The notes below the pieces were generated by a model. That model was not told the DNA's origin and did not search any database. It was given only the letters and a program-made list of their open reading frames with translations. A DNA stretch of 64,000 bases, taken from Lytechinus pictus. Lineage: Eukaryota. Positions 8,159 to 59,482 of this stretch are shown in pieces. The stretch is taken from contig NC_087250.1 of NCBI RefSeq assembly GCF_037042905.1, positions 9,550,001-9,614,000 of the forward strand, given 5' to 3'. The position numbers and the translations under genes were made by a program. Numbering within the stretch: the stretch's first letter is position 1; every line of letters begins with the position of its first letter.

Positions 8159-8742
8159 AGGAGAATGAAACTCTTGGAACAAGTTAGCTTTTGTGAAAGA
8201 AGAAAAATCTAAGAATAAGATCAACAAAAGTTTGAGTTAAATAGGACTAGCAATAGAAGAGTTATGAGCATTTGAATGTCGAGATCACTAATGCTATGGA
8301 GATCCTCTCATTGGCAATGCGACCAAGATCTATGATGTAACAGATGAACAACTCTCCCCTTTTGGACACTGAAAATATACCCCAAAACATCTCTTTTTGC
8401 TCATTCTAATCTAATGACAAACGATTCATCAATGATATAATGTTGTGAAACCTCTGTACTTGTCCTCTCATAAAGAGAACACCTCACCTTGTGATAGACT
8501 CCATAAAAGTGAGAATATAAGTGAAATAAGTACTAAAGTAATGAGGGAGTTGTACGTGTGTGACATCACAGATCTTGGTCGCATTGCCAATAGGAGGATC
8601 TACATGGCATTAGTGATCTCAATATTCAAATGCTCATAACTTTCTTATCATTCATTCAATCTTCCTCAAACTTTCAACAATATGTTTCTTTGATTTTTCT
8701 CTTTGATATGGATTCAGCTGGTTTCAAGGGTTTCATTCTTCT
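8159..8742. mobile_element. TTAA-flanked MITE (Kolobok-like termini AGG...)
   Basis: ttaa|aggagaatgaaac ... gtttcattcttct|ttaa with subterminal inverted arms. Same family as 24710-25297. Confidence 0.8.
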
Positions 8743-24208: not shown

Positions 24209-24709
24209 TGACATCAGCGCACCGCCATCTTAGAGAGTGAAGCCATGATCTGCAGCTGGCGCCTCTCTGACATCTCCATTTCTGTTGAGCCCCTTTCACA
24301 ATTGGTGGTGAAATCATTTGCGATCATTTGGTCACATTATATATTGCACACAATCGCAACGGTTGTAAGCAGTCGCACCACCAATTGTGAAAGGGGCTTT
24401 ACTCCCGGATGAACTCGACAAAGCAAAGCAGCTTTCCCGGTAGCATCGAGGCAAATCTAGTTTCTAACCAATTACATAGGAAATAATTTACGTCTAAATA
24501 GATCTGTCATAGTATCTGACCCTAATATAGACTACGGAAATTATTCCCGGGCCCTTTAGAGACAACGGCCGAGAGGGGATTCGAACTCACAAGCTTAGAA
24601 TCGTGAGCCCAGTGTTCTGACCACTAGACCACGTGCATGACCCACATTTATGCGTATTTTTTTCCTCTGAGGAAGGGCGCTATGAGTTTATGACGTCATT
24701 TAAACTTAA

Positions 24710-25297
24710 AGGGGAATGAAACCTTTGGAATAAGTAGGCTTGTGTCGAAACAGAAAAATCAGCGAATAAGAAGAAAGAAAGTTTGAGAAAAATCGAACAA
24801 ATAATGAGAAAGTTTTGAGCATTTGAATATTGCAATCACTAATGCTATGGAGATCCTCCCTTTGGCAATGCGACAAGGATGTGTGACGTCACATGTGAAC
24901 AACTTTTCCTTTGATGGACTATAAAATACCCTCAAAATGTCTCTTTCTGCTTTTTCTTGTGGTGATACAAACTCTTTATCCATGATGTATTCTTTAAAAA
25001 TCTGTATTATTACATGCCCTCCTACAGAAAGAACACACGATCTACTGATAGATGTGATAAAGGAGGCAATTTAAGTAAAATATATACTAAAGTAATGGGG
25101 AGAATTGTTCACAAGTGACATCACACATCTTTGTCGCATTGCCAATTTGATGATCTCCATAGCAATAGTGATCGCAATATTCAAATGCTCATAACTTTCT
25201 CATTATTTGTCCGATTTTTCTCAAACTTTCGTTGATCTGTTTCTTTGATTTATCTGTTTTCACACAAGCTATCTTGTTCCAAAGGTTTAATTCTCCT
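24710..25297. mobile_element. TTAA-flanked MITE (Kolobok-like)
   Basis: ttaa|aggggaatgaaacctttggaa ... ttccaaaggtttaattctcct|ttaa. Confidence 0.82.
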
Positions 25298-25589
25298 TTA
25301 AGGCCTATAGAAATCTGAGGGCAGGGGCGCCGCCACAAGTTGGAGGGGGCGGGGGGTGGGGTCAGTGGGCTCCCATCGCTATAACTTCCAAGTGAAGAAG
25401 GGAAAATGATAATACAAAGGGTGGAGGAGAAAGGACGAAGAAGAAAATAAAACGGGGAGGTTTGGGCATTGTGATTTAATATTACCCTTAAACTCCAAAT
25501 GAATAAAAATATGACGTCACTTTTCTGTCGCCTTGCCCGTCAATCGTCTATCGCAGCTACTACTTGAATTACTACTGTAATTAGATACC

Positions 25590-26350
<761 letters not shown>

Positions 26351-26884: not shown

Positions 26885-28633
26885 TAGGAGTGGGCTATAC
26901 GTGGGTCAAAAATACTTTTTGGGTCATTTTAATGTGACAACAGTTTTTATTTATTCCTTGTAATGTATCTCAACATTAAATTACAATATTTTTTGTCTCG
27001 GGGTCCTAGAAAAAAGTGTGCCGGGCAAAAATCCAAAATGGCCGCCAAACCCCCCAAAATCGCAGTTTTGGCCACCACTTCTTTATTAGGTGGTCCTTTT
27101 CTCTGGTTTTGGTGTCTATTCATATGTTTTTGGGAGCAGGCAATTTGTTTTTCCTAATATTAGTACTTTTAAACCATTATTTGTAGAGTTAAAAAGGTGA
27201 TTTTGCCTAAATTTACCAATTTTTAGACCCCTTTTTTCAGCCAAAAAGGAGGTGTCATCGTCATGTGGTTATTGGATTTTAGACGATGCGAGCTCCACAA
27301 TTGCAAGCAGTTTCAAATAGCTATATTGCATTTATTCCTCTACTTTGGGTTTTACGGATATTTGCGAAATGATCTATAAATTTAAAAAAAATGTCAATTA
27401 TCCATAGGGGCTATACAGTATACAATGTACTGTACATACTGCACCGCATACACATGGATGCCCATGCATAGACCACCATGACAAGGTCTGTATATAAACT
27501 ATAGTGTCATAGAAATGAGCTCTTAGGTTTATAATTAGATGCCTAAGAAATTAAAGATATGTTTTGTCTCAGAAATTGAAGACATCTTTTGTCAAATATG
27601 AAAATTCATGCCCGGGGTCGAAGAGAGGTAAATTAATAATGGATTATAGTCAACCCCACATTATGGCATTTACATTGTAGCTATTCTGGGCCCCGTTGCA
27701 TAAAATTTACCATTAAGGTAACTTTGCCATTAAATAGTAACTGCATGGAATCCTTGATTCTGATTGGCTGTTGATCAGCATTACCATGGTATTTACCTGA
27801 CCTCATAAACATAGGGTTCACACCACAACCAGGTTAAAAAAAAAAACTCAAAATGAAGTAGAAATGGCTAAAATTGTGATGTACGTATATGATGTTTATG
27901 TGCAATTTATGTTACATCAGGTTAGATCATGTACATCAGCTGACAAGCAGTCAATTCACAATCTAATTCTAAACCTCAGAAGCTCATTTTTATGACACTA
28001 TATAGTTTATATACATGCCTTGTTATATGTCATGGTGGTCAATGCATGGATATACACTGGCAGTGTATGCAGTGTCCCTGTATTATGTACAGTACATTGT
28101 ATATCGCATTGCCCCTATTGATAAATGACATTTTCTTTTATTTGATAAGATATATTTCACAAATATCCGTAAACCCCAATGTAGAGGAATAAAAGCAATA
28201 TAGCTATATGGAGCTGCTTACTACTGTTCAACAAGTATCGTCTAATATCCAAGAACCACAAGACGATAAAACCTACTTTTTGACTGAAAAAAGGGCTAAA
28301 AAAAATTGGTAAATTTAAGTAAAATCACCTTTTAACTCCACACATAATGTTTTAAAAGTACTAACTTTAGGAAAAACAAATAGCCTGCCCCCCAAAACAT
28401 ATGAATAGACACCGAAACCAGAGAAAAAGACCACCAAATAAAGAAGTTGTGGCCAAACATGTGATTTTGGGGGGTTTAAATTTTGGCGGCCATTTTGGAT
28501 TTTTGCCCGGCACACTTTTTTCTCGGACCCGAGACAAAAATATTGTCATTTCATGTTGAGATAAGGTAAAAGGAATACAAAAAAACTGTTGCCACAGCAA
28601 AACCAATAATCACCCATTTATAGCCCACTTCTA
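26885..28633. mobile_element. Non-autonomous long-TIR (foldback/Mutator-like) element in intron of gene C
   Basis: Imperfect inverted arms of ~650 bp (26885-~27540 and ~27960-28633). 9-bp TSD tattatcaa at 26876-26884 and 28634-28642. Confidence 0.85.
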
Positions 28634-36415: not shown

Positions 36416-37937
36416 CCAAAAAGTCCACAGCTAAGGACGCACACCACTAATGGGATCCGGCAATTTCGGGATTCCCCTTTAGACCCGTATCATGACGTAA
36501 TGGTTAGAAAAATTTATATAAAATCAACGGTGCAAATCTGAACATTTTTTTTTTCATACGGGCATAGAGAGGGATTACTACTGGATCTGTTCAGGCACAT
36601 GGGAGAGCAGTAATTTTTCAATGGGAACTTAATTAGTTGCCCAAGAAAAAGGCCTGTGAGCACTGTGACTGCAACCAAGTTTGCATGTAGTTTGGGTTTG
36701 AGCCCCTGTAGCGCGAAAAAATGCTGAAAACCCCTGTTTCATTTGTTTAGCGTTTGAAGGATATTGGATGAACTAACAAATGGTAAAGGTTTGGTTGGTG
36801 TCACTATAAAGACGTATTTTTTGCGATTTTTTTTTCAAATCTCATTTTTAACACATGAGTCTATCATGTCAACGGGAAAATAGTTAGTGTTGTGTGCCCC
36901 CAATACAATTTCGCATTTTGTTGAATACGGAATGTCGCCCTCTTTGTTCGCAGCAAACCGATATTACTTTTGTTCTGCACGAGTGTTTGGACCTCCCAAG
37001 TGCTGTTAGAATACCGAACAGTTGGGGTCTCAAATTGGTAAGGCCCTACCAAAGGACCACTTAATTGCTGGAGAAAATGTCGAAGGGGGGGGGGGTATAT
37101 CCTTTCATTTATCTGAGAAGAGGCCTACACAAACGGCCCTTACTTTTAAAGGAAGATTTTTTTTAATCATCATTATCAAATAATATTGTGCATGACTTTA
37201 TCTATCTACGTGTAATTTTTTTATATATTTTAATTGATGTGATTTTCCAAAAATTTAAGAATTGATATCATGTTATTCATATGCTATAATAGATTCATCT
37301 TTACCTTTAATAATATACCTTCTTTTCTTTGAACAAACAACACTCCTTCATTTTATCTCGCTTCTGAATGTACTTGATAAGACGAATATCATTTTTTTTT
37401 CTCTCTCTCATTGTTTTAAATTAAATATGAATACATTTATTTCTTTTCTCAGTTGTACATTTCATTCATTCATTAATTCACTCATTTCGTTTCATTTTAT
37501 TGATTTCTACAACATCTAATATACAAATTAACAAAATAGAGTACTTAATAAAATCTGCAGATCAAGAAGAGAAATAAGAAACAACTCCTATAACATAATG
37601 ACTGAAGAAGGTTGCGGGGATTGTCATTGAATATTGATGAATGACCATCATTTTCCTCTTTTTTTTAATTGCATTTATTTATTGATAAGTAGCTGTTGTT
37701 TTCTTCTCACATTTTTCTAACAACTGGAAGCAACTCGCTACGCCACCTCCGTGCAATGGCATAATTAGAAGATATTTTTAGTCTCTTGTATACTTACCTC
37801 CATAATATATGTTATTTGAGACTATATGTAATATTTCATTTGATAAAAAAGTATTGGTAATTGCTCGCTTCGCTCACTCGCAAATTGATATGAAATAATG
37901 GTTCATCAAACCCAAATATCACGTGCAATACCCTTAA

Positions 37938-38539
37938 GGGTCAAGTCCACCCCAGCAAAATGTTGATTTGAATAAATGGAGAAAAATTAAACTAGCATAA
38001 CACTGAAAATTTCATCAAAATCGGATGTAAAATAAGAAAGTTATGGCATTTTAAAGTTTCGCTTATTTTTTCACAAAACAGTGATGTGCACAACTCAGTA
38101 ACATGCAAATTAGTCAGTCGATGATGTCCATCACTTACTATTTCTTTTGTTTTTTATTGTTTGAATAATACAATATTTCATTTTTTTACAGATTTGACCG
38201 TAGGGACCGACTTGACTGAACCATATATTAATAAACAATGCTAATTCCACACGTATAGGGAGGAATTAATCACTGTTTCACTTGACAATGAGGAGAAATT
38301 TAGAATATTTCATATAATAAAATACAAAATAAATAGTGAGTGGATGACGTCATCAGTCTCCTTATTTGCATACCGACCAGGATGTGCATTCAACTGTTTT
38401 GTGAAATTAAGCGAAACTTTGAAATGTCATAACCTTCTTATTTTACATCCGATTTTGATGAAATTTTCAATGTTATATGCATGTTGGATTTTTCTCTTTT
38501 TATTCAAATAATTTTTTTTTGTTGGAGTGGACTTGTCCT
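37938..38539. mobile_element. TTAA-flanked MITE, caagtccacccc family
   Basis: ttaa|gggtcaagtccacccc ... gtggacttgtcct|ttaa. A second copy follows at ~38610-39190. Confidence 0.82.
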
Positions 38540-38609
38540 TTAACTATAGCTCGTGTCTCATCAAATCATTACTATTTTTAAGTAGTTCTTCCCCGATTAA
38601 ACAAAAAAA

Positions 38610-39190
38610 AGTCCACCCCAGAAAAAAAAATGTTGATTTGAATCAATAGTGATACATCAAACAAGCATAATGCAGAAAATTTCTTCAAAATCAGATGTAA
38701 AATAAGAAAGTTATGACATTTTTAAGTTTCGCTTATTTTTCACAAAACAACTATGTATGCACAACTCCGTGATATACATATGAGAGAGTCGATGATATCC
38801 CTCACTCACTATTTCTTTTTATTGTTTAAATTAATATTTATTTTCAAAGATTTGACAATATGGACCAACTTGACTGAATAATAAAATGTTAAAACATGGT
38901 CATTCCACATGTTCAGTGAGGAGTAAACTTTTTTTCACTTGACAACGAAGAGCAAATCAGAATATTTCATATAATAAAATGCAAAATAAATAGTGAGTGG
39001 GTGACGTCATTAGTCACCTCATTCACATACCGACCAGGATGTGCATATAAGTGTCATGTGAAATTAAGCTCAACTTGAAAATGTCATAACTTTTTTATTT
39101 TACATCCGATTTTGATAAACTTTTAGCGTTATGCTTGTTGGATTTTTCTCTTTTTATTCAAAACAACTTTTTAGTGGGGTGGACTTGCCC
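38610..39190. mobile_element. Adjacent second copy of the caagtccacccc MITE
   Basis: Co-linear with 37938-38539, termini eroded. Confidence 0.75.
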
Positions 39191-40734
39191 AGAAACAGCC
39201 TTTGGCAGTGGCGTACCTAGGATTTTCCTGAGAATCACATGAATGAAATATATAAATTGTACATGTTTTAATTGATATGATTTCTCCACCTTTTAAGAAG
39301 TGATATTTTATTCATATGCTGTTTATACACCCTTTGGCTGGTTAAAAACTCCTTATGTTGAAGTGCAAAATACTGGCGATGATGAAAGTGATGTTGATCG
39401 GATGCAATGGGTGACGGCATTCACTGTACATATAACATAAGCTTATCACGTCACGGTTCTCATTAATCTGTACGTGATTAACATTTACTCCGTTTTCCCG
39501 GGCCGTTTTCACAGAAATGATGTTCGATTTAATTCTTGCTTTATTTTTTAAAATCACCAGTTTTTCTGCATTAAGAATTTGAATTGAATATGAAATGATC
39601 TGATGATAGAACGAATTATTAACATCGGAGATTTTTATAACCAATAAAACTAATATTTTACACACCTGTAAAAGAACATAAAGTTATCTTTTCAAACAAC
39701 CGCCCCTTGGGGATATGGCTTCTACACAATATTGAATTCCACTTAAAAGCATAAGTCCCTTGAAGTGGAGTATATTTAGAGAGAAATAAGACCGTCACAC
39801 ATGTAATTTGATCCAGAATGATTAAGGTATTTATATGAGGCGTTATCAATGTTTTAGTGAATATTTTGGTTATGGTGAATCAATTATTAGAAAGCATTTC
39901 GACGAGGAGTAAGTTTGCTGCATTCAACAGCGGACCAATTGTCAACAATTGACTTCTATACACGCCCCATGCATTGTAGTCAGTAGGACGACGCCAATAT
40001 TTCTGTGCGAAGTCTGTGATGATATAGTTGACGTTTTGAGGAATTTTGAAGATTCTGTGAATTGTCTTGAGGAAAAAAACGGAAAGGGTGAATCAAAGAT
40101 ATTAGAGATTTCTATTACTTGTATACTGGTAAGTTGACCATCTTTATAAAATGATAAAATTTACGTTTATTCTCGCTACATTTTGTTATTGTCTATAACT
40201 GCGCTGTAGCTTGTGCTCTGTTGAGGCGAACGGCGTGTGTACGTGCTGTTGCGCGGCTACTGCTGCGGGCGTGGGAGAAGCGACCCGCTGCGGCGCTGGT
40301 CCTTGTACGGAATAACTCAACAATCGTGAAATGATCTGTCAAGAATAGGGATCTGTTTACCGTGCCAAATACCGGAAACCATTTACCTTAAGCTCTAATG
40401 ATATTACAGGAGGTCTTTAATTTGTATTTACTATTTATTTTTGTGTGTGATAAAGTACTGCATCTAGAGTTGTGTTTCCCCTCCCACGGCCACGGCCCAC
40501 TTTACTTTACACAATGCGAACACACAAATTGACAGAAGAGAAGTGGGAACTGGGTCTGGGATGAGGAAACATTTTTCAGATCTGTTCAACTTTTTGTTGG
40601 AATGCAACAGAAATTGAAACGAAAAGTTGATAATTTTTTTTAAATATTTGTATGATGTTGATAAAATCTTCAATAACAAGATGACAAGAGGTACTAATGA
40701 TGAGGATGAGTAATTTAAGTAAAACATGAAGATT

Positions 40735-41050: not shown

Positions 41051-41779
41051 AGGGGCAGTGCCACAGGGTGAGGAAGAAGGGGGGGGGGGCTGAGGCAAAC
41101 TCCCATGAAGCTTCAGTTTGTGAAGAAATAGGAGAAGACGAGAAAATGAAGGAAATGAGAAATAAAAGGGGGAAGTAGGCCTAGATTATAAAAAGAGAGT
41201 TCTGTGTGTTCACTATCTCACTTTAATTTTATTAATTTATTTAAAAAGAAAATTTTTAGCCCCTCCCCCACTCAAAATATTCTGGCGCCGCACCTGGTGA
41301 TGCTGGCCGGTGATGATGCAAAAATACCTTTTATGTTGTGATGAATGATTCAGCCATCACATGAACGAACTGAATTGAATTTTGCATTGCTGTCCTACGC
41401 CTCGGCAGTCATTAGTCTGCAGTTAGCTGTACATTAACAATAAAAACAAATAATAGGAAATACTTCTAAAAACCCTGCGGGTCACTACTAGTTCTATAAA
41501 GAAAGCCCATTGATCTGGGCAATATACCGCTATGTACATGTTCTGCTCTGAAGCTGTAATTATAAAAGATTGAAGGGATTCCTGCAGACAGAAATAACCA
41601 AACTTGCTCGGATTTTGCTGGAAGTACAAATCAGATCATATCAAATTAAATCAAACAATATAAAAATCTGCATTTGAGATGATCATCCTGTTCAAATAGG
41701 CTACTTTCAGTACATATTTCCTGTTTAAAAAAAAAAGATGATTATAATATTCCAAAATCTACAGATAGGTAGACATAAT

Positions 41780-42092
41780 GGCCCGAATTCACAAAGGTGG
41801 TTTTGAAAACCCACGGTTGAGTCCATGGTTTATGCAGATTTCCTGTATAAATTACGCTTAATTTAGCGCGTATCGGGCGCGTGTATTAAAAGTGTCAAAT
41901 GCTGATGCGCGCTTTGGTCACAATGCGCCAAATTGACGCCTGTTACCATTGTGACAAAAGCGCGCATCAGCATTGGGCATTTTTTATACACGCGCCCGAT
42001 ACGCGCTAAATTAAGCATAATTTATACAGGAAATCTGCATAAACCATGGACTCAACCGTGGGTTTTCAAAACCACCTTTGTGAATTCGGGCC
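41780..42092. mobile_element. Near-perfect palindromic MITE (Harbinger-like)
   Basis: ggcccgaattcacaaaggtggttttgaaaaccc arms >130 bp, TSD aat. Partial copy at ~62645-62920. Confidence 0.85.
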
Positions 42093-42579
42093 AATGGTTT
42101 TCAGGAAATATAATTTTCAGATGATAATAGCTACTCAGGTCCCCCTTTAGACCTTACAGATATGTCTAGACACAAGCTTACTATTTTTTTCACACAATAA
42201 ACCACCATGTTTAAGCTCAAAGTCGGTCTCCACACACAATTGAAGTTGTCTTTTCTTTTATCCAGAGAGTGCTGGCAAATCAATGTGTTGACTGCAGACC
42301 ACTTCCCTCTCTCCATAGTATATCCCCCCCCCCCCTCCCCCACAAAAAAAAAACAACAAAAACAATGATAGTAAGACAAAATACATCACCATTATCCTCA
42401 CTCCTATTATTATCATCATCTCTTCAACAGGGATCACTGGCATCCTAGTCTGCTGGCACAGACCCTTGGTTTTATCCTATTCGCATTAAGTGCATAATGC
42501 AGAGTCTGAAGTAGTGAGACTAGATTCGCTATGTATAGTGGCTAGGTCTACCATTATTATATTTCATCACACAGACAGA

Positions 42580-43909: not shown

Positions 43910-44513
43910 AGGACAAGTCCACCCCAGAAAAATATTGATTTGAACAAATAGAGACAAATCAAACAAACAACGCAGAAAATTTCATCGAAATCAGATGTAT
44001 AATAAGAAAGTTATGACATTTTAAAGTTTTGCTTAATTTCACAAAAAGAGTTATATACATCCCGGTCAGTATGCAAATGAGGGAATTGATGACATCACTC
44101 ACTCACTATTATCTTTGTATTTTATTTTATGAAATATGAAACATTCTAATTTTCTCCCCATTGTCCTTTGAAACAAAGTTTAATTTCTCCCTGAACATGT
44201 GGAATTACCATTGTTTAACATCTTATGGATCAGTCAAGTTGGTCCTTATTGTCAAATCTGTGAAAATTGAAATATTGTATAATTCAAACAAAAAACGAAA
44301 GAAATAGTGAGTGAGGGACATCATTGATTCTCTCATTTGCATGTGACTAAATTGTGCATATATGACTATTTTGTGATGTGAAAAATAAGCGAAAATTTAA
44401 AATGTCATAACTTTCATATTTTACATCCGATTTTGATGAAATTTTCAGCATTGTGCCTGCCTGATTTTTCTCTATTGATTCAAATCAACATTTTTCTGAG
44501 GTGGACTTGACCT
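43910..44513. mobile_element. TTAA-flanked MITE, caagtccacccc family
   Basis: ttaa|aggacaagtccacccc ... gtggacttgacct|ttaa. Other copies at ~33218-33712 (truncated) and 52806-52962 (internally deleted). Confidence 0.82.
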
Positions 44514-47500
44514 TTAAGACCTGTTTTTAGTTTTGGTATTTTACCCACACTGTGGCTATCAGTATCACTATTCTAATCCATTGCTAGATTATATGAATGG
44601 TATACTGCTGATTCGTCTATTGTCAACTCGTCTATGGTCTACCTTCATTTAGTCTAATGCCAGTCCGTTCATCAACATCTCGTCTAACTCTAACAGCCAT
44701 TTGGTCCAATAATCACTTTGTCTTATCCCCAGTTTGTCTATGGCCGTTTCGTTCCAAAACCAGTTGGTCTAATGCCCACTTTCTTGTTATTCATTTTGCC
44801 CAATTATCACCTTATCCAAAATAGACCAAATGGTATATGAAATAAATGGCAATTGGGCCAACTGGTTATTAGATGAAATGGTATGTTGGACCAAAAGGCA
44901 AGTAGACCATGTGGATACATGACAAACTGATATTGGACCAAATGAATGTAGATGAATTGAGAATCTGACAAATTGGCATTAGATGAATTGGAAATAAACC
45001 ATATGAATATGCCCTAAAACAGATGTGGTAGGCCTTCTTTTTATTGTGTATTTTACAGGGTAAATTTCGCGATTTTACTTGAAAATTTATTTTAAGATGA
45101 AAATAAAATATCTGCATGCTATTTCTTTCAGATATAATATTCCAATGCATGGACAGGGCTGAAAATTAAAGGACATGTAATATCTGTCTGTAGCTTGTTA
45201 AAAAATCCCTAAATTTGTAATACTAAAAGAGCCCTTTTAAGAGAAAATTAAAATATCGCTTATAAAGGGGGCTAGATATGTTAGATTGTAATAAATATTC
45301 ACAGAGAATAGTTGGTCGAAGCTATTCACTAGCTAGCAACTAGCATGAAATTACTGTGAGGGGTATATTAAAAGCTGACTGATGCTGCAATATTGGCCCA
45401 TGCCATCTGAATTCATTGTCGTACTCAACAAATTTTCAAGTTATCCAGGCAACCTGGCTTGATCATAAAACAATTGGATTGACAACTGATTAAGTGCATT
45501 TATTTCATCATAACGGAGACACATAAAAAAATGTATGTATGAAAAAATGAAACAAATACGATTTCATGTAATAACATAAGAAAAAGGAATGTTGAGATGT
45601 GACATCATATACCCACAGGTCTAATAAAAATTCATGACAACTCGTAGGCCTATATAGAGATAACTGTTTTCAACAAATTTTACTGAACTTTTAAAATTCA
45701 ATAACTTTGTTATTTGTTATCCGATTTTGATTTAATTTTCAGCATTTTCTCAGCCCGGAGCATCCCTTTAAGTAAAAATATTGCAATTATTGTGATGAAG
45801 AACACTGAGCAGTATGTAAAAAAAACATTTTGTCCCAAATTTCAGGATACAAGCCTGGCCTATACAGTGTATTTAGGCCTGCTTAAATACCTTCTCCCTT
45901 CGAGGGCCCCTTTATTCTTCAAAGGAAATGATCTGAACCAAAAAGGGAGATAAATAGAGAGTATAGGATTGTGAATAAAAAGCTCTAAATTTCAAGAGGA
46001 CTTTGAGATCTTATGTAGATTTGCTCAGGTTTATAGTCTTGGGAATCAGACTTTATTTAAAAATTTTTGAATTTTTTCCCTTTCTTCCCTTTCTTTTGCA
46101 GCTTATACTGAAGAATATATATAGGCCCATTGTTTAAAAGCCAAGTTCCTAATTGCATATATTCTCTTATTCAATTCTTCAAGGACATGTAGATAAAAAA
46201 GCTATTATGATAACTAACACAACATATGAAATACACGCCTAAATTGGCTCTCTCATTTTGCACATGAACCATGACCCCGTTCTCAGCATACTTTCTAAAA
46301 CTAGTTTAGTGAAAACCGGCTCAGGGAACCAGTTTCGAAAATTGCTTTGCTAGCGTTCTCATCTGAATTTTCCATCTGATTTTGATGAAGTTTTCAGCAT
46401 TATTCTTGTTTCATTTTTCTCTTTTTATTCAAATAAACTTTTTTTCTGGGATGGACTTGACCTGTAACATATTCCTTTCATATGGGAGACGCTTTTCTTG
46501 GCCCCTATAAAGACGGATCGTTTTCACTGACCACAGACAGGTTTGGCTGTACATACATGTAGGCCTACATATGAACTTTGCTATGATACGCGCATGATAA
46601 GAACTTGCTTTAATACACAGGGAAAGCATTACATGGGGCTTCAGTGTTTTCGCCCGGAAATTTCTCCAAAAGCCCTGGAAAATTAAAAAGACCCCCCCAC
46701 AATAAAAAAAAAAATCCCCCTTCACTTCTATACAATGTTGCAGATTTATGCCGTAGGTAATGAAAAGTAGCTCCTGAAAAAAAAAAATCAAATTTGTATG
46801 TTATTTTCTGTATTTAGTTAAATTAACCAGTAAATCATTTTGTTGATGATTTTGCTTTCATGAAGCTTGCAAAAATCAGTGAAGTGGATGCTGAAACGTT
46901 TGGCATTCTTTGCAGTGTTGAAAGTTTAGTTCTAGGCAGACTTAGCACATTGCTTCAAATCGCAAAGTATCTTTACATAACTGCCCATGTAGAAATAACC
47001 GGCCCCAAATCTGTGTACTTTACGGATCAAGACAATTTGGCATGCTATCCTCGAAAAAGCCACTTTTCAGATCCTCTTTTTCTCTCCAAACCCTAAAAAT
47101 AGATACATACAATACAGTTCGATGGATGGAAGTCCTAAAAGTGTTTTTTTTTTCAAGAGAAGAACGAGAGGTACCTTGAAAGGTTTGGTTTTAGTAGGAA
47201 AAATTGTATCATATAATATTTGATTGATTAACATGAAGCCTTAAATCAAATTCCAGCAGCATATATAGGTAAATCATATTATTGCATTCAGTAACCCTTT
47301 TTTTCTGAATCTAGTTTCAGTTCTGTATTGTGTGGTGGTTTTTGTTGCTCACAGTTTTAGTTGAGAGCGATTGTGTTTTTGGTCATGGCCAGATACATAT
47401 ATTTATGGTCCATTATGAATTGTATATTTGGAGTCTAATTTTTGTTGTTGCAAATACACTGTATGTAAGCATATACATGTACATGTAACAAGGGAATGGT

Positions 47501-49228
47501 TTTCATGGTATCTCATCACAATTTCCTCTGCATTTATTAAAAAAAAATGCTGTATAAAAAGTCTTTTTTGTAGCAGATTTTTACATACAGTAAGACTACA
47601 GTCACAGAATAGAATAACTGAGAGCCTTTCTCTAATGACCAAAAATTTGCTTACAAGCATGGCCATCCTCAGTAGAATCCTTGCAAAATCCCTATAACGC
47701 AAAGGCATATGTACATGTACTCTGTATGGATGAGATAAAAGAATGTGAACATGTGCGATCTTTGTACACATTCTTCAGGGTCAAACTTCCCACAGAAGCA
47801 GTTGGAGAGTTGCCTTGACCATTTCATTTGATATATGCGATAATTTGAATTGTATGAAAAAATGATGAAAAACCATATTTTATTGTTCGAAATCTACAAA
47901 ATGTTCCGAAAATTTGCTGTGCAGCGCCAGATCGACGAGGCTCTATCCCTTTTATCGTTGAACGCCAAACAAGGTAGCAGCAATTCTCCCATTAGCCCCA
48001 TATCACCAGAAACTGCAGTGGAATTTAAAATGTCGGGACAGTGATTTTCTTTCCCTGAAAATGTTGTCTTGCATGGATTATAACACAGAATCGTAGAAAT
48101 GTATGTGATTTCTGTTTAGTTTCATATATCACACGTCAGAAACATTTCAGATTGGATCCATTGCAGTATAGCGGCAAATTTCAGGTGACCAAGAATGTGA
48201 GGCCATCTAACTTCAGTTTAAAAACAACATCTCACAATCAATAAATATCCAACATCCACAAAGGCCCCCGTTCCGCTGAGCTCTATAACAGGGCGTGCCA
48301 ATCCATAACTATAGATTCCAAGTGTAAAGCCCATTGATTTTGGCCGAAGGGCAGACTTGTCGCGCAACCCACGCGGAGCAGAAGCAACAGTTGCTTTCAA
48401 CGATCGTGCCAGCTTTCTCAACTGTCATCGCCTATTAAAGATATCCTCTTGTGTTCCGCGGGAAATGTAAACATGTCCAGAGAGTCTGGTGTATTGTGTT
48501 TGAGTGAAATATTTATGTCTTCTGATGGCCAAACATGCAGGGGATAAGATAACATGAATGATGCAGGTATGATTTTAAGCACCGCTCGATATGACAGGTT
48601 TTGTTTTGCTCGACAAAGGCTTTATCACCTGTCCGCCGTCTTCTCATGTATAGTTTATGAAACATGATGAGGAGGATCACTTCTATCAATTGTCTATTAC
48701 ATGTATGAATCTGTCTACAAATAATGATTAAATACAAAATTTTGCCAGTACTTTAGTTGACTTTACCATTAATTTAAACACAGAATGAAAAGAGCCTAGA
48801 AAATGTTAAAAGCATTCATTCAAAGCACATTTTTTTTGAACACCTGCTTTAAAAGTACCTTCCCATATTAATAACCCAGACATTACCTTTAATGCAAGCA
48901 AGTTAGACCAGGGTCCCATAACACAAAGGTTAGCGATTAATCGTACGCTTGATTGTACATTGGATGTTGTTTGAAGGTTTGCATGGTGGCATGTACAATC
49001 GCTGATGTGGTTTACATGTGGAGTGTTATAGAAACAGTGGATAGAAGAAGAGAAGAAATGGATAGGCGAGAAAGTGGAGATTTGAGAGTAGAGTATTCTT
49101 TCTTGAAAGTAGTCCTGAAAAGGACTGTAAACCAGGAAAGTTTGATGAGTTGAGAACAGCTTGAGTAGTATAGCTGATGAGGAGATGCTGGCTTGAGTCG
49201 GGCGAGTAGAGATGATGAGTAGTAGAGA

Positions 49229-49273
49229 GACTCGACGTTTCGGACAGGTTGACTGTCCGTCTTCACAATAGTC
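49229..49273 (-). ncRNA. Degenerate minimal hammerhead motif (probable Penelope terminal-repeat relic)
   Basis: Minus strand reads gUGAAGA-c-GGACAG ucaac CUGUCC-GAAA-CG-UC. Perfect stem II, ACGU palindrome and GUC triplet; C3 and stem I are decayed. Confidence 0.55.
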
Positions 49274-50667
49274 AATGGTATCAATCGTAAAAAAATGTGT
49301 CTACGATCATTGCTAAGCTTTGTGTTACAGGCCCCTGGTTTTAGAAGACAGATGAAAGAAACAAATCCATCCATGCATTCGGTTCTCTGGTACCGAATAA
49401 TAACATCGATGGCGCGCTTGCTTGGATATAAACCAAAAACAGATCAAAACAACCCTTGATATTTTTTAAAGGTAAATCTTTTTGCTGCACAGGAATAAAG
49501 CATTAAGCCCATGTTAGTATTGTGCTTCACCCAGACAACAAATATCTATAAAGGATCCAGGAAATATGCCTGTGAGGAAAACATTGTAGATCAAGCCAAC
49601 AAGCTCCCCCCCTCCCCCCCCCCACAAAAAAAATAAAACTAATTAAAAAAAAGGAAATAAAAACAAAAAAATAATAGATAGAAAAATAAGATTAATAAAT
49701 GATTAAACAATAAGAAATGAAATAAAATAAAAAAAATGAAAAAGAATAAAAATAAAAATAGGCCTACATGTAGATTATAAATTTTAGAGAAAATAGAAAA
49801 AAAAATATGATCATGCCCAAAATGGAAAAAAAAATCTGAAAATATCTTGAAAAGTTGGTGATTCATTCCACCTCAGTTTCAGGGAAGATTTTTCAAGGGC
49901 TATCTTTACAACCTGCTGCCAGAGTCTACAACATTGCTGTGAATGGGAAATTTTCTGGGGCATTTAAAAAAGAAAATCTTCCAATGCTCTTTTAAATATT
50001 ACTGGGGTGAAATTGCCTCATAATTAATGCTCCCAGGTTGTAATTTATTCCCTGTCCCAAAATGAGTACTTAATCTATTCATGAAAAAAAACAAGGTACG
50101 TTATCCAAATACATACATGTCTTGTTTTTTGTAAACCCTATACTATAAAAAAGATTGAGTAAAAATGTACACAGTATTGGGTAGAAAGGTATGCATTTTT
50201 CCTGGGTAATTTCTATCCCCATTATTGGGCAAAATGGATGTTTTAAGGGTAAACTTCCACTCAACATTCTGTAAACTTTACAAAGTATTTGGTATCATTT
50301 TACCCAGCAAACATGCATGTTCCCATTTTACCAAATAATAAGTAAATGCTTTTTAGAGTGTACCTCGATCTACAAGTAGCTATGGGTTGATAGTTACTCA
50401 ATAGAATGGAATAAGAGGGCCATAATTGATCTTACACCAGTAGTGAATAGACTTTCATTGATCATTTTGTCCATCTCCCTACGTGAAAGAAACGACATCG
50501 CCCCAGGATGTAATCAATAATCAGAGCTTCTTAAATTGGCAAAATGAACGGAATGTCACCCTTACATTCCAATCATCGCTTTCATTATTTTTCCCCATCG
50601 GTATAATGAGACCGCAGGGGTTGTTTTCAATCATGCAATTTAGTCATGATGATGATGAGTTTTCTAG

Positions 50668-54623: not shown

Positions 54624-56013
54624 TGTCCGCTCATTTGACAATCAAATCATTCATACCTGACTGAGAGTAATTACTGAAATACTAGTTTGCTTAAAACTTC
54701 ATTAAAATACAATGAAAGAGCCAAGTAAATATATGAAATATATACATCTACATGTAGATGTAAAGTTGAATTTCCTGACTTCCCAGAGTTAAGACCACGA
54801 CCTATAGACTAGAGTCAAACTATACTTCTGAAATGGGACGATCCATCATTTCTGGAGTCGATTCTCAAGACTTTGTGTACATAGGACCGAAGCACACCAG
54901 AATGTCTTTGATCTTTTACGCCCACAGTCCCACTGCCCGATTATGACAGAAAACATTGGAGTGTATACACAATCCATTGTTGGGCCAGGATAGCTCCACC
55001 TTTGTGGCCCAAGGTGGAAAGTTTATTTTGGAATTCTGCTAGTCCTCGCTATGTGGTTGTCATGGACTTTGTTTTACCTCGGAAGCTATGCACAGGGAGT
55101 TGGAAAGTACCATACGCTTTGAAAGTGGGTCGGACAGTACCCTTCTGCATTGGCATGGGTTATTTACATTATTCCACATTTTCATCTAGAGTGTAGCAAT
55201 CTTTTCTGATTATCAGGAAGCTATTTTTGGGGAGTTTGAAAGCACTTTTTGGAACTGGGACAAGAACATTAAATTATCCCTTATTTTTTATCTTTCAAAC
55301 TTTCCTGATAATTGACTTGTTTTACCTTGAAAGATATGTTTGGAGTTTCAAAGCACTTTTTGGAAGTGGGACAACTTTGAAAGACCCATCTGCTCGGAGG
55401 GGGGGGGGGCACTGACATATATTGGTAGTACAGGGACGTGCCGCTTTGATGACCCCTCTTTTCAGGTTTCAGTCCTAATTTTCATTTCTCTAGATATTCA
55501 GAATGACAAAAGTTCCATTCAGAAGCCACCCGCCCCGCTCACAAGACCCCCGTTACGAAACATCTCAGTTCGCTAGACCTGCCAAAATTGTCCAGCGCAA
55601 GTACCGCATACGAGAGCTGCACGCACGGCTTCACAACTCCCTCCGCTATAGCTGCTCCATGCACCGCTAACTCCCACATTTACATGCACAGCACTAGCAT
55701 GCACCTTACCTACATACATGTAGATCTACCACGATCCCGTTCTGTAGATCCTGTTTTTCACACCGCCTGGTATATATTTAGTTCCCAAGACCCCGTCTTG
55801 TACCCTTTTGGTCAGTTCCTTAGATTCCCCCCCCCCCCATATAATGTAATTTTCTCTATAAGTGTATTGTATTGTACATGTACATGTACCTTTGGTAAAT
55901 TAACGAATAAACGATCATTTCACACCCGCTCCTGGTAGAAAAATATTTAAGTCATCACAAATCATTGAAAAAAAAAGAAATTCATGCATTTTATATTACA
56001 AAGTCAAAAAGGG

Positions 56014-56052
56014 GCCTAAGCTTTCGATCCTAGCAGAATCTTCGTCGGAGGC
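56014..56052 (-). ncRNA. Minimal type I hammerhead ribozyme motif, copy 1
   Basis: Minus strand reads GCCU-CCGACGA-A-GAUUC UGCUA GGAUC-GAAA-GC-UU-AGGC. This gives stem I, a core variant, stem II and a palindromic stem III (AAGCUU). Confidence 0.72.
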
Positions 56053-56912
56053 AAAATGACAAACATATAAAGTGGAACAACCATAATATAGACCACAAAC
56101 AAGCTACAGCAACACTAGAAACAAGGAGACAAAAGGGGCATTAGTGAGTAGAGAAGACCAATCAGGTTAGTGAAGGGGATGAAAGAAAAGGAGTAGGCAG
56201 ACACAAAGGGAAGTTAGTGTAAGTAAGGCCAGTAAAGGACCTCAAGCCAAGAGGGATTAAAATAATGAGGCAGGCAACATCAAACAGGATCTGGAACAAA
56301 ACAGTGATAATGGGATGAAAAACAAGAGAATTAGTGAGAGGTGGGTCAAACAGGTTACAAAGAAAGGCTTAATAAACTGGTGCATAAGAGTGGGGGAAAA
56401 AAAGAAAAAGAATGGGGAACAACTGATAATGTGCAAAAGACATATAAGTATATATGATAAAGCATTAGACAAACTAAGAGAAGAAGGTAAGTGTAAATAT
56501 GTATCTATAAGTGATATGTATATAAATATATCCAAAAAAGAAATGTATATGAAAAAATATATAAATACACATATGGTGTAACTGATATTGTAATCCGCTA
56601 GGTGTGACGGGAAAAAGCAAATTGCCTAAAAAGGTAAAAGCAAATATAGAAGAGAGGGGGTGTATTATGAAGAAACCATAGTATACATGTAAATAAGCAA
56701 ATGTGGTAAATCTAAAAGAGGTGAGTGGAGAAAAAACAAATATATATATATATATATAATAATTATTATATCGCCTGAATAAGGAAGGAAAAATTGGAGC
56801 TGAGCTTGTATGAGATATGGGAGGAAAGTAGAGTAAGAAACTATAATGTAACTATTCAAAAGAGCTGAGGGGAAAAATTATATGTATATATAAATTAGAA
56901 AGTCAAAAAGGG

Positions 56913-56951
56913 GCCTAAGCTTTCGATCCTAGCAGAATCTTCGTCGGAGGC
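56913..56951 (-). ncRNA. Minimal type I hammerhead ribozyme motif, copy 2
   Basis: Identical to copy 1, within a 59-bp direct repeat (56000-56058 and 56899-56957). Confidence 0.72.
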
Positions 56952-56991
56952 AAAATGTATATATAAATTGAAAGTGGATAGGAAAGAAAAA

Positions 56992-59187
56992 TCAGTCGTT
57001 CCCCTCTTGGATGTTCAGGCCATGAGGTTGGGTGGTGCGAAGTCGTCTCATCCAGAGCTTCTCCCTGCTAGTACGGACTGAGTCAGGACGGGTACCTAAA
57101 GATTCGATGCCCTGTAGCATCATGTCAGTGATGGAGTGGTTGGGGAGGTTAAAATGGCGGCCAACTGGAGTGTCCAGCTTTGCTGTGTTGACGGTGGATC
57201 TGTGCCCGTAGAATCGTTTCTTGAGTGTGGTCTTGGTTTCCCCTATGTATTGTACCCTACAAACTCTGCAAGTGATGAGATATACAACATTAGTGGTAGT
57301 GCATGTGATGTTGCCCTTGATTTGGTGAGACAGGCTGGTAGAGTTGCTGGTGAAAGTATCGCCCTCGTGAAGGTGTATTTCACATATGATGCACCTGTTG
57401 CTGGTGCATTTGAAGGTGCCATGCTGTATGGGAGAAGAATGGTTAGTGAGGGAGGGCACTTCAGCACAAACAATGAGGTCCCTGAGATTCGGTGGGCATC
57501 GGTATGCTAGAAGGGGAGTATCGGGAACGGCCTGTTGGAGACGATCAGAAGTGTGTAAAATGTGGTGGTTATCAAACAGGATTTTGCGGAGAGGGGGTAG
57601 ATTGGGATGGAAGGTGGTCACAAGCGGTATTCTGTCGGTGGTCTCCTTGTCACTTTTTGGTTTGAGAACTTCAGATCTGGGGAGAGAACGAACTCTGTTA
57701 ATTGCCAGTTGGACTGCCCTGGCCCCGTGGCCCCTGGCACAGAGATGTTTCTGCAAATTCCTGGCATGGAAGGAAAAATCAGGGTCCTCGGAGCAGATAC
57801 GGCGAAGTCTGAGGGCTTGACTATAAGCGATGCCGGTTTTGCAGTGACGGGGGTGGCAGCTGGATGAGTGGAGGTACTGGTGGGTATCTGTGGGTTTAGA
57901 GTATAGGGTAGTGGTGATACCATTATACTTTTTCTGGACTGTAACATCAAGGAAGTGGGTTTCCTGTTGGGAGAAATCAGAAGTGAATTTGATGGTCCTG
58001 TGGAAGGAATTGATGTGGTCAATGAATGTATGGAGGCTGTCTTCATTCCTGGTCCAGATGAAGAAAATGTCGTCTATGTAACGCCACCAAATCCATGGGC
58101 GACAGGGGGCTGAATCTAACATCTGCTGTTCCAGCTTCGTCATGAAGAGACAGGCGAATGAAGGAGCCATCCGGGTGCCCATTGCTGTACCGAATATCTG
58201 TAGGTAGTGCTTGCCCATGAATGTGAAGTTGTTTTTTGTTAGTACATGAGACATCAGAGATTTGATATCGGATATGGGGGGACTGGAATGGCCACTGGCG
58301 GCCAAGGCTTCACATGATGCTTGGATACCTTCGTCGTGGGGAATGCTGGTGTACAGTGAAGAAACATTGAAAGTGCCGATGATCGCAGTCTCGGGTATCT
58401 GGTCCTTGATGTCATTTAGTTTCCTGAGAAAGTCTGGAGTGTCGTGGATGTAAGAGGGTGCACGTGAGACAAGGGGCTTAATGTGGTAATCAACAAAAAG
58501 GGAGATGTTCTCTGTTGAGGAACCATTTCCTGAGAGGATGGGTCGACCGGGGTTGCCAGGTTTGTGGATCTTCGGGAGGAGATAGAAGCGGGCAGGTTTA
58601 GCATTAGTAGGGGAGAGAAATTTGTGGGCCTTCTCAGAGAGATGCTCGTGTTCTTTCATGTCATTCAGTGTCGATTGGATCTGTAGGGAGAAATTACAAG
58701 TAGGGTCAGAATCAAGGAGTGCATAGTGAGATCGATTATTGAGATGTTTCATGGCTTCATCGATGTACTGCTGGCGGTCCATAACAACGACGGCTGATCC
58801 TTTGTCTGCAGGCTTGATGATGATGTCGGACCTGTTTTTGAGTGATGAGAGAGCCTGGCGTTCTTCTCGAGGAAGGTTGTCATGTGCTCTGGTATCGAGG
58901 GTATCTGTGGAGCGAACTTGGGATGAGACAGCTTGGATGTAAGTTTCAAGGGAAGGAACTCTATTCTTAGGTGGAATCCATGTGCTTTTCTTGTAGAAGG
59001 GCTCGGGATCAGAAGGGGGTGCATCTAAAAAGAACTCTTTGAGACGTATCCTGCGATAGAATGTAGAGAGGTCTTGGCTGAGAGCTATCTGTTCAACTTC
59101 TGGTGGCGTGGGGCAAAACTTGAGACCTTTAGAGAGAAGAGAGGTTTCTGCTTGGGAGAGAGGGGAGGATGAGAGATTAACAACCAA
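56992..59187 (-). CDS. Penelope-like reverse transcriptase / GIY-YIG endonuclease polyprotein (N-terminally truncated; frame stays open to the junction at ~59263)
   Basis: Motifs IKPADKGS, FYLLPKIHK, GTAMG, WRYIDDIF, FLDV, YSKPTD, a Cys/His linker KCTSNRCIICEIH, and NVVYLITC...QYIGET (GIY-YIG). Confidence 0.93.
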   Translation of the reverse strand: MVVNLSSSPLSQAETSLLSKGLKFCPTPPEVEQIALSQDLSTFYRRIRLKEFFLDAPPSDPEPFYKKSTWIPPKNRVPSLETYIQAVSSQVRSTDTLDTRAHDNLPREERQALSSLKNRSDIIIKPADKGSAVVVMDRQQYIDEAMKHLNNRSHYALLDSDPTCNFSLQIQSTLNDMKEHEHLSEKAHKFLSPTNAKPARFYLLPKIHKPGNPGRPILSGNGSSTENISLFVDYHIKPLVSRAPSYIHDTPDFLRKLNDIKDQIPETAIIGTFNVSSLYTSIPHDEGIQASCEALAASGHSSPPISDIKSLMSHVLTKNNFTFMGKHYLQIFGTAMGTRMAPSFACLFMTKLEQQMLDSAPCRPWIWWRYIDDIFFIWTRNEDSLHTFIDHINSFHRTIKFTSDFSQQETHFLDVTVQKKYNGITTTLYSKPTDTHQYLHSSSCHPRHCKTGIAYSQALRLRRICSEDPDFSFHARNLQKHLCARGHGARAVQLAINRVRSLPRSEVLKPKSDKETTDRIPLVTTFHPNLPPLRKILFDNHHILHTSDRLQQAVPDTPLLAYRCPPNLRDLIVCAEVPSLTNHSSPIQHGTFKCTSNRCIICEIHLHEGDTFTSNSTSLSHQIKGNITCTTTNVVYLITCRVCRVQYIGETKTTLKKRFYGHRSTVNTAKLDTPVGRHFNLPNHSITDMMLQGIESLGTRPDSVRTSREKLWMRRLRTTQPHGLNIQEGND

Positions 59188-59482
59188 ATGGGGGGATACA
59201 TCATTGTTGTTGGTATGTCGTCTAAATCTGTTTGACCGTTGTCGCTTCTTTGTGAGGTTGCCTATTTTATATTACATAAGAAACATGTACATGTAAATGA
59301 CAACTGCTTCTTTATGACATCCCAAATTCTAATTAACTTTCTTAAACTTTGGTGGATTTTTCTCAAACCTTTACCAGTATTTTTTTCTCTGGTATTTTTT
59401 AGAACCAACTTTGTGTCAGGATGAACTTCCCCTTTAATGATTATTATAGACAATAACAAAATTATGTTTTTTTTCTTTGCAG

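What the first reader, a model, noticed from the sequence alone, without database searches (positions are those of the whole stretch)
56000..56957. Pair of identical variant hammerhead ribozymes 899 bp apart in the Penelope 3' region
Seen: an exact 59-bp repeat folds on the element's sense strand as stem I GCCU/AGGC, core CCGACGA (U4C relative to CUGANGA) plus an extra A, stem II GAUUC/GGAUC, GAAA, then palindromic AAGCUU with a CUU cleavage triplet. Established: Penelope-like elements carry minimal type I hammerheads whose short palindromic stem III is thought to form by dimerisation of tandem copies. Inference: the two copies could pair and release a ~0.9-kb RNA that might circularise. The element ends ~13 nt past the distal ribozyme.
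Basis: partly seen in the sequence, partly recalled or inferred. Interest (0 to 1): 0.7.

Follow-up and report, generated by a model that had tools for sequence, protein, structure and literature searches.

The report
Self-inserted hammerhead in Penelope retroelement
A broken jumping gene in a sea urchin has its small self-cutting RNA motif twice because a 58-base scrap of the element's own end jumped back into it; the motif is a known kind, and the pair is an accident of this copy.

Summary
An exact 59-bp repeat lies at 56000-56058 and 56899-56957. Both copies are minimal type I hammerheads (min-HHR) on the sense strand of a 5'-truncated Penelope-like element (PLE), most likely in a Lytechinus sea urchin. 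The reading as a built-in ribozyme pair is not supported. The distal copy is the family's ordinary single hammerhead. The proximal copy is a 58-nt scrap of the element's own 3' end, inserted just after the stop codon between 15-bp target-site duplications. The empty form appears in 3 of 4 public runs laid. None of 79 related loci has two same-strand hammerheads in one 3' flank. U4C is the assembled family form in one DNA run, whereas 32 of 34 related motifs have U4. A natural U4C is in print for a viroid, with reduced activity. No circle junction or cleavage-end pile-up was listed in RNA reads, a weak test. Verdict: known ribozyme kind, a minor core variant, and a probably copy-specific duplication. 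The scan has reported ordinary PLE hammerheads on other genomes before.

The parts
55988..56000 (.). Target-site duplication of the whole element, left copy (13 bp, A+T-rich)
   Evidence: Exact match to 59264-59276; 3 of 3000 random flank pairs share 13 or more bases
56000..56058 (-). Distal copy of the 59-bp repeat: the family's own min-HHR (stem I 56052-56049 with 56017-56014; C3 56048, C4 56047; predicted cut after 56018) plus a 13-nt tail to the element's end
   Evidence: Same position as the single hammerhead of L008, L010, L011: 780-865 nt after the end of the ORF match, against 871 nt after the stop here once the 73-nt insert is removed
56059..56881 (-).
   Evidence: Covered by family contigs and reads; short similarities to the L007, L008, L012 UTRs
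56882..56896 (.). Target-site duplication of the inner insertion, one copy (15 bp)
   Evidence: Exact match to 56955-56969; 0 of 3000 random pairs share 15 or more bases; one search reports 15 letters fitting both sides of the 73-nt skip
56897..56954 (-). 58-nt insertion: extremely 5'-truncated copy of the element's own 3' end, carrying the proximal hammerhead (C3 56947, predicted cut after 56917)
   Evidence: Absent from the family form: joint 56881 to 56955 in X1, X23 and X11; absent from L007, L008, L009, L010, L011, L012, L017
56955..56969 (.). Target-site duplication of the inner insertion, other copy, 22 nt after the stop codon
56992..59263 (-). 5'-truncated PLE ORF: reverse transcriptase, CX4CxxC linker, GIY-YIG-type endonuclease; lacks about 140 N-terminal residues; Asn at the RT motif A aspartate
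   Evidence: 88 of 88 fetched relatives with the motif have Asp
59264..59276 (.). Target-site duplication of the whole element, right copy; its end overlaps the element's 5' junction by about 5 nt of microhomology
   Evidence: the nucleotide match to L007 begins inside it

Best explanation
A young PLE family in this sea urchin carries one minimal, dimer-type type I hammerhead about 870 nt after the stop codon. Copies end 13-20 nt past its stem I (the PLE 'tail'). One 5'-truncated copy inserted here with a 13-bp target-site duplication (shown). In this copy or its immediate parent, a second insertion placed the last 58 nt of the element's 3' end into an A+T-rich spot 22 nt after the stop codon, duplicating 15 bp of target (shown: both duplications and the empty form). 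The likeliest agent is the family's own endonuclease and reverse transcriptase. It would prime at the tail with about 6 nt of microhomology and fall off just past the hammerhead (inferred). The two copies are identical because the event is recent, not because a pair is conserved. The ribozyme's likely job in intact tandem elements is protein- or partner-assisted cutting of the precursor RNA (from the literature). Here it is probably weak or silent because of U4C and because the copies are predicted to pair in a form without stem III (inferred).
For: Joint 56881 to 56955 skipping 73 nt, with 15 letters fitting both sides. It is in the only X1 DNA contig over that junction (3076 nt, depth 25, no other letters on the laid part), in 8 X23 RNA reads from 7 starts where local depth is about 8-10, and in one X11 contig; a second X11 contig also lacks the insert (56854 to 56958). 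The 58 + 15 = 73 arithmetic and both duplications are. The five close relatives that reach a hammerhead (L008-L011, L017; 70-88% protein identity) have exactly one, and none of the seven close relatives has one next to the stop. 34 model hits lie in 30 of 79 loci; the four loci with two hits have them either flanking the ORF or on opposite strands. RNA reads continue past the hammerhead with a sequence whose first bases match the proximal junction (123 and 112 reads), which gives the priming microhomology. A PLE protein was shown to prefer an ATT site just downstream of its own ORF-pLTR junction (PMC11167929). PLE duplications of 8-10 bp and 5' microhomology are in print (PMC3846280).
Against: No genome was held, so copies could not be counted. 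Assembled contigs drop rare forms, so a minority subfamily with the insert is not excluded. X24 shows no skip (depth 1-2 there). In the published in vitro work, priming started at a site not homologous to the cut DNA, unlike the microhomology here, so DNA-level templated insertion stays possible. The 5' end of the insert falls just outside stem I, which is tidy for a random truncation.
Confidence: 0.8

Rival explanations
1. One reading: the two hammerheads form an active double hammerhead in cis, cut out a 899-nt RNA, and this circularises, whatever the origin of the pair.
For: Both motifs are complete apart from position 4 and lie on one strand. The palindrome is real across relatives. The two copies are predicted to find each other across the spacer (pair probabilities 0.96-0.98). 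Dimers of min-HHRs cleave weakly in vitro (PMC4209133). U4C is tolerated in a viroid in vivo (PMC3088659).
Against: The predicted pairing swaps stems I and II and gives stem III probability 0.0. The double-hammerhead form scores -17.7 kcal/mol, against -27.0 for the swapped duplex and -19.2 for two monomers. The 899-nt circle is 40% paired, against 39% for shuffles; 2 of 20 shuffles fold as well. There is no go-back joint among the joints shown and no end pile-up (about 6% of each RNA run was read, and those animals may lack this insertion). The copy has lost its 5' part.
Confidence: 0.08
2. The insert arose at DNA level (microhomology-mediated templated insertion during break repair, copying the distal hammerhead or another family copy) rather than by reverse transcription. 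The result is the same: a recent, functionless duplication.
For: There is microhomology at both junctions, and the target resembles the tail (12 of 13 bases with one gap). The donor-like sequence lies 899 bp away.
Against: The insert ends where family copies end (the tail) and has a duplication of similar length to the whole element's (15 and 13 bp). The bases just after the repeat follow the family continuation (56897-56899) rather than the distal copy, whose sequence there is target DNA.
Confidence: 0.09
3. Two hammerheads are the ancestral or a spreading subfamily design, and the empty form arose by deletion between the 15-bp repeats.
For: 15-bp direct repeats could mediate such a deletion. 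Rare forms are invisible in the assembled contigs.
Against: The empty form is seen in runs labelled as three different organisms. All seven close relatives lack a hammerhead next to the stop. The two copies are 100% identical while the family differs by several percent among those runs.
Confidence: 0.03

Closest known systems
Minimal hammerheads (min-HHR) in pseudo-LTRs of metazoan Penelope-like elements (Cervera and de la Pena 2014, PMC4209133; Lunse et al. 2016, seen only as a citation in PMC6765202)
   Same: Type I layout, 4-bp stem I, long stem II, extra nucleotide between 9 and 10.1, G10.1-C11.1, palindromic 15.2/16.2, location at the 3' end of an RT + GIY-YIG element. A Strongylocentrotus purpuratus example with core CUGACGA plus A is in their supplement.
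   Different: C at position 4 (neither of the two CCGA strings in the searchable supplement is a core). A second same-strand copy 899 nt away with no ORF between; the paper describes pairs flanking the ORF (about 3 kb) or on opposite strands (100-700 bp).
Poseidon element PAc of Anolis carolinensis (Frangieh et al. 2024, PMC11167929)
   Same: [quoted passage not shown]
   Different: In PAc the hammerhead overlaps the start codon. Here relatives place it about 250 nt upstream of the start, with a likely intron between (L009). This element has the CX4CxxC linker of the Neptune/Nematis type.
Non-LTR retrozymes of animals (Cervera and de la Pena 2020, PMC7229834; Li et al. 2026, bioRxiv 10.64898/2026.07.22.740005)
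   Same: A non-coding stretch bounded by two same-strand type I hammerheads; low G+C; 899 nt is inside the 51-972 bp range of the preprint, which derives retrozymes from PLE pseudo-LTRs.
   Different: Not a tandem repeat: only the 59 bp recur. The hammerhead is minimal rather than canonical, the unit is not highly self-paired, no circle was seen, and no dispersed copies of the two-ribozyme form were found.
U4C viroid hammerhead variant (as cited in Perreault et al. 2011, PMC3088659; recalled as peach latent mosaic viroid, Ambros and Flores 1998)
   Same: The same core change, reported to lower activity considerably in vitro yet to allow infectivity.
   Different: That ribozyme is a full hammerhead with a stable stem III. 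Here U4C sits on a minimal motif that is already weak.

Membership tests
PLE minimal type I hammerhead (min-HHR) | Stems I and II around CUGANGA/GAAA boxes, with covariation across relatives | tested here: met
   100% and 96.8% of cells paired; 75 double changes against 22 shuffled; slid controls 26-40% paired. The relatives were picked by a descriptor that requires these stems, so the paired share is partly circular.
PLE minimal type I hammerhead (min-HHR) | Palindromic positions 15.2/16.2 in place of a stem III | tested here: met
   15 of 15 distinct motifs found without requiring a palindrome are palindromic. The pair occurs as UA 9, CG 6, GC 2, AU 1 among 18 (3 of the 18 came from a palindrome-requiring scan). 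The window has AGCU.
PLE minimal type I hammerhead (min-HHR) | Extra nucleotide between 9 and 10.1, and a G10.1-C11.1 pair | tested here: met
   Sequence
PLE minimal type I hammerhead (min-HHR) | Consensus core with U at position 4 | tested here: not met
   C4 in both copies and in the X1 family contig; U4 in 32 of 34 related hits. It is therefore a core variant, not a consensus member.
PLE minimal type I hammerhead (min-HHR) | Located in the pseudo-LTR / 3' end of a PLE | tested here: met
PLE minimal type I hammerhead (min-HHR) | Self-cleavage as a dimer | not testable with these tools
   No assay. No pile-up of read ends was listed, but fragmented libraries test this poorly.
Endonuclease-bearing PLE, Neptune/Nematis type | [quoted passage not shown] | tested here: met
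   the linker as a marker of these two clades from PMC8557442
Endonuclease-bearing PLE, Neptune/Nematis type | Clade placement by RT phylogeny (Neptune versus Nematis) | not tested
   No named reference sequences were fetched
Non-LTR retrozyme | Tandem repeat units each bearing a hammerhead | tested here: not met
   Only 59 bp (about 86 bp loosely) recur; the spacer occurs once
Non-LTR retrozyme | Abundant, highly self-paired circular RNA | tested here: inconclusive
   The predicted circle is no more paired than shuffles. No go-back joint among 15 of 19 shown, but carriers were not identified and about 6% of each RNA run was read.
Non-LTR retrozyme | Dispersed copies of the ribozyme-bounded unit | tested here: inconclusive
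   The family form lacks the proximal ribozyme; no genome was available to count rare forms

The most novel reading that the evidence does not exclude
This is a retrozyme being born. A PLE's habit of nicking its own ORF-pLTR junction drops a hammerhead-only copy at the start of the 3' UTR. That brackets the whole pseudo-LTR as an 899-nt ribozyme-to-ribozyme unit, which can be cut out, circularised and mobilised in trans. It would be a concrete one-step route from PLE to non-LTR retrozyme, and would mean that U4C minimal hammerheads work in vivo.
Probability: 0.07. Interest if true: 0.6.

Novelty: new variant of a known kind. Interest (0 to 1): 0.24.

Why it matters
As it stands, modestly. It is a clean worked example of a PLE inserting a hammerhead-only scrap into its own 3' UTR, with both target-site duplications and the empty form visible. 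It also shows a family that seems to have amplified with a U4C core, which bears on the open question of whether PLE hammerheads need to cleave at all. If the 899-nt unit were excised and circularised, it would give a direct route from PLE pseudo-LTRs to animal retrozymes, which a 2026 preprint infers only from phylogeny.

Tried and rejected
Rfam scans found no hammerhead family: none at gathering level over the window, and two chance snoRNA hits at E up to 10 over 54-61 kb. Single-strand folding is uninformative (z 0.14 for the 59-mer). A pattern scan of viral contigs gave 6 hits, none with hammerhead stems on reading. A protein-led scan of viral contigs found no relative. No host genome was held. 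The stem I pair probabilities were indexed one base off and are replaced. Rejected: 'the spacer is the 5' UTR of a next tandem unit'; relatives show it is the ordinary 3' UTR / pseudo-LTR ending in the distal hammerhead. Not used as evidence: the heterogeneous loose ends at 56956-56957 in RNA reads, which could be other hammerhead-only insertions or sister families with near-identical hammerheads (as L010). Literature searches for a PLE U4C: 'hammerhead' + 'U4C' gave one paper. CCGA-core strings gave 204 papers, of which the 15 listed were unrelated by title. 'Penelope-like' + 'hammerhead' + 'sea urchin' gave none. Lunse et al. 2016 was not held.

Full report
Observation. The repeat is exactly as described: 59 identical bases at 56000-56058 and 56899-56957, 899 apart. 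On the minus strand each reads as a minimal type I hammerhead. It has a 4-bp stem I, the core CCGACGA plus one extra A, a 6-bp stem II, GAAA, the palindrome AGCU and U17, with predicted cuts after 56018 and 56917. A relaxed descriptor finds only these two sites in the window, against a mean of 0.1 in 20 resampled windows. Rfam has no model that catches them. A covariance model made from 18 relatives, with no window sequence in it, gives 42 bits and E about 1e-8 for each copy. It includes near-identical relatives, so part of the score is homology.

The host element. A 759-codon frame at 56992-59271 (minus) encodes reverse transcriptase, a CX4CxxC linker and a GIY-YIG-type endonuclease. The closest named proteins are from Lytechinus variegatus at 93-96%, so the host is most likely a Lytechinus sea urchin. 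The linker marks the Neptune/Nematis type (PMC8557442, passages); I built no tree. The copy lacks about 140 N-terminal residues and has Asn at the RT motif A position, where 88 of 88 fetched relatives with the motif have Asp. An exact 13-bp duplication at 55988-56000 and 59264-59276 bounds the insertion (3 of 3000 random flank pairs reach that length).

What relatives look like. A metagenome scan returned 79 loci with related ORFs. The model finds 34 hits in 30 of them. Among the seven close relatives examined (70-88% protein identity), L008, L010, L011 and L017 have one hammerhead 780, 864, 865 and 430 nt after the ORF match. L009 has one upstream of its ORF, followed by a likely intron and the start codon. 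L007 and L012 end before reaching it. None has one next to the stop. The four loci with two hits have them flanking the ORF (L021, L027) or on opposite strands (L040, L072), both layouts already described (PMC4209133, parts 1-2 of 4 read). So the distal copy here, 871 nt after the stop once the insert is removed, is the family's normal hammerhead, and the 'spacer' is the ordinary 3' UTR / pseudo-LTR. Many loci are short contigs: 33 of 79 have 900 nt or more of 3' flank, so the test is weaker than 79 suggests.

The ribozyme fold is real. Across 18 relatives 96.8% of stem cells pair, with 75 double changes against 22 in shuffles and 26-40% pairing in slid controls. Stems I and II were part of the selection, so this is partly circular. 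The palindrome was not required, yet 15 of 15 distinct motifs have it, with no hits in three resamplings. Among the closest relatives the central pair occurs as GC, AU, CG and UA. This fits the published dimer model.

The proximal copy is an insertion. It lies between two exact 15-bp repeats (56882-56896 and 56955-56969), and the 58 nt between them are the element's own 3' end (0 of 3000 random pairs reach 15). I laid four of the 24 listed public runs. A joint that skips exactly these 73 nt appears in three of them. In X1 it is in the only contig over that junction (3076 nt, depth 25, no other letters on the laid part). In X23 it is in 8 RNA reads from 7 starts, where local depth is about 8-10. 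In X11 it is in one contig, and a second X11 contig also lacks the insert. X24 has depth 1-2 there and lists none. These runs carry three different organism labels. RNA reads that run on past the hammerhead (123 and 112 reads, agreement 0.94 and 0.98) give the family's continuation. It resembles the L010/L011 tail, and its first six bases match the duplicated target. I infer target-primed reverse transcription by the family's own protein, started at the tail and abandoned after about 60 nt. A purified PLE protein prefers an ATT site just downstream of its own ORF-pLTR junction (PMC11167929, parts 1-2 of 4 read). PLE duplications of 8-10 bp with 5' microhomology are in print (PMC3846280, passages). 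Against this, the same in vitro study found priming without homology, so DNA-level templated insertion remains possible. Contigs drop rare forms and no genome was held, so 'this copy only' is likely but not shown.

U4C. 32 of 34 related hits have U4. The two exceptions (L063, L065) are one weak motif with a further core change. C4 is not private to this locus: the only X1 contig over the distal hammerhead (304 nt, depth 131.5, about five times the ORF) differs from the window at two places, neither in the ribozyme. For the other runs only 40 of 180 difference rows were shown. None is at position 4, and every row shown reaches at least 82% in some run, so U4 appears not to be near-fixed there; its share is unknown. 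A natural U4C is in print for a viroid, lowering activity considerably in vitro but allowing infection (PMC3088659, passages and section 8). I found no PLE example. One of the three supplementary files behind one search was not searched. Lunse et al. 2016, the largest catalogue, was not held and is known to me from a review's citation (PMC6765202, passages) and from recall.

Would the pair release a circle? In a folding model of 55990-56990 the two copies do pair, at 0.96-0.98, but by exchanging the arms of stem II (and stem I on the outer side, 0.93-0.98). The intermolecular stem III has probability 0.0. For two isolated copies the double-hammerhead form scores -17.7 kcal/mol, against -27.0 for the swapped duplex. 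Such models ignore tertiary contacts and proteins, so this is weak. The 899-nt circle is 40% paired, like its shuffles (2 of 20 fold as well), unlike the highly self-paired retrozyme circles (PMC7229834, passages). The RNA runs list no pile-up of ends and no go-back joint among 15 of 19 joints shown. Only about 6% of each run was read and the animals may not carry this insertion. Published min-HHR dimers cleave only weakly, and 8 of 9 Xenopus retrozyme dimers did not cleave (bioRxiv 10.64898/2026.07.22.740005, parts 1-3 of 5 read). One PLE hammerhead needed protein and was dispensable for insertion in vitro.

Verdict. A real PLE minimal hammerhead of a kind described in 2014, with a family-level U4C variant, duplicated by a recent self-insertion in a dead copy. 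The boldest reading not excluded is a retrozyme precursor made in one step (about 7%). Earlier notes of this scan report ordinary PLE hammerheads on other genomes and none on look-alike DNA; they did not change my reading.

Noticed in passing
window 49223-49277 (-): A decayed hammerhead of another PLE family: intact 6-bp stem II and ACGU palindrome, G at position 3. 17.5 bits, E 0.034. It resembles the second S. purpuratus motif in the 2014 supplement.
   Followed up: partly
window 56016-56500, runs X23 and X24: The distal half of the 3' UTR has 2-4 or more times as many first mates on the minus strand as on the plus strand. In a usual stranded library that means RNA antisense to the element; it stops near 56500. 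Probably a truncated copy inside a host transcript.
   Followed up: no
window 56956-56957 and 56000/56894, runs X23 and X24: Dozens of reads leave the hammerhead at almost the same points with mixed flanks. They could be many hammerhead-only insertions or sister families sharing the motif.
   Followed up: no
L008 (after about 2820): A PLE 3' end with canonical core is joined directly to what reads like a bacterial gene, in a low-coverage marine metagenome contig; chimeric assembly or a real insertion.
   Followed up: no
L078:803-851 (-), L017:1705-1753, L063/L065: Other core variants among relatives: a U3/A8 pair in L078 (already in print), C3 with A8 in L017, and a weak C4 motif with a changed position 6 in L063/L065.
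   Followed up: partly
window 8155-8700, 24705-25302, 27047-28477, 37932-39195, 41779-42093, 43927-44525: Several families of inverted-repeat elements of 100-320 bp arms, like miniature DNA transposons.
   Followed up: no
window 25529-26325: About 800 bp of mixed trinucleotide microsatellite.
   Followed up: no
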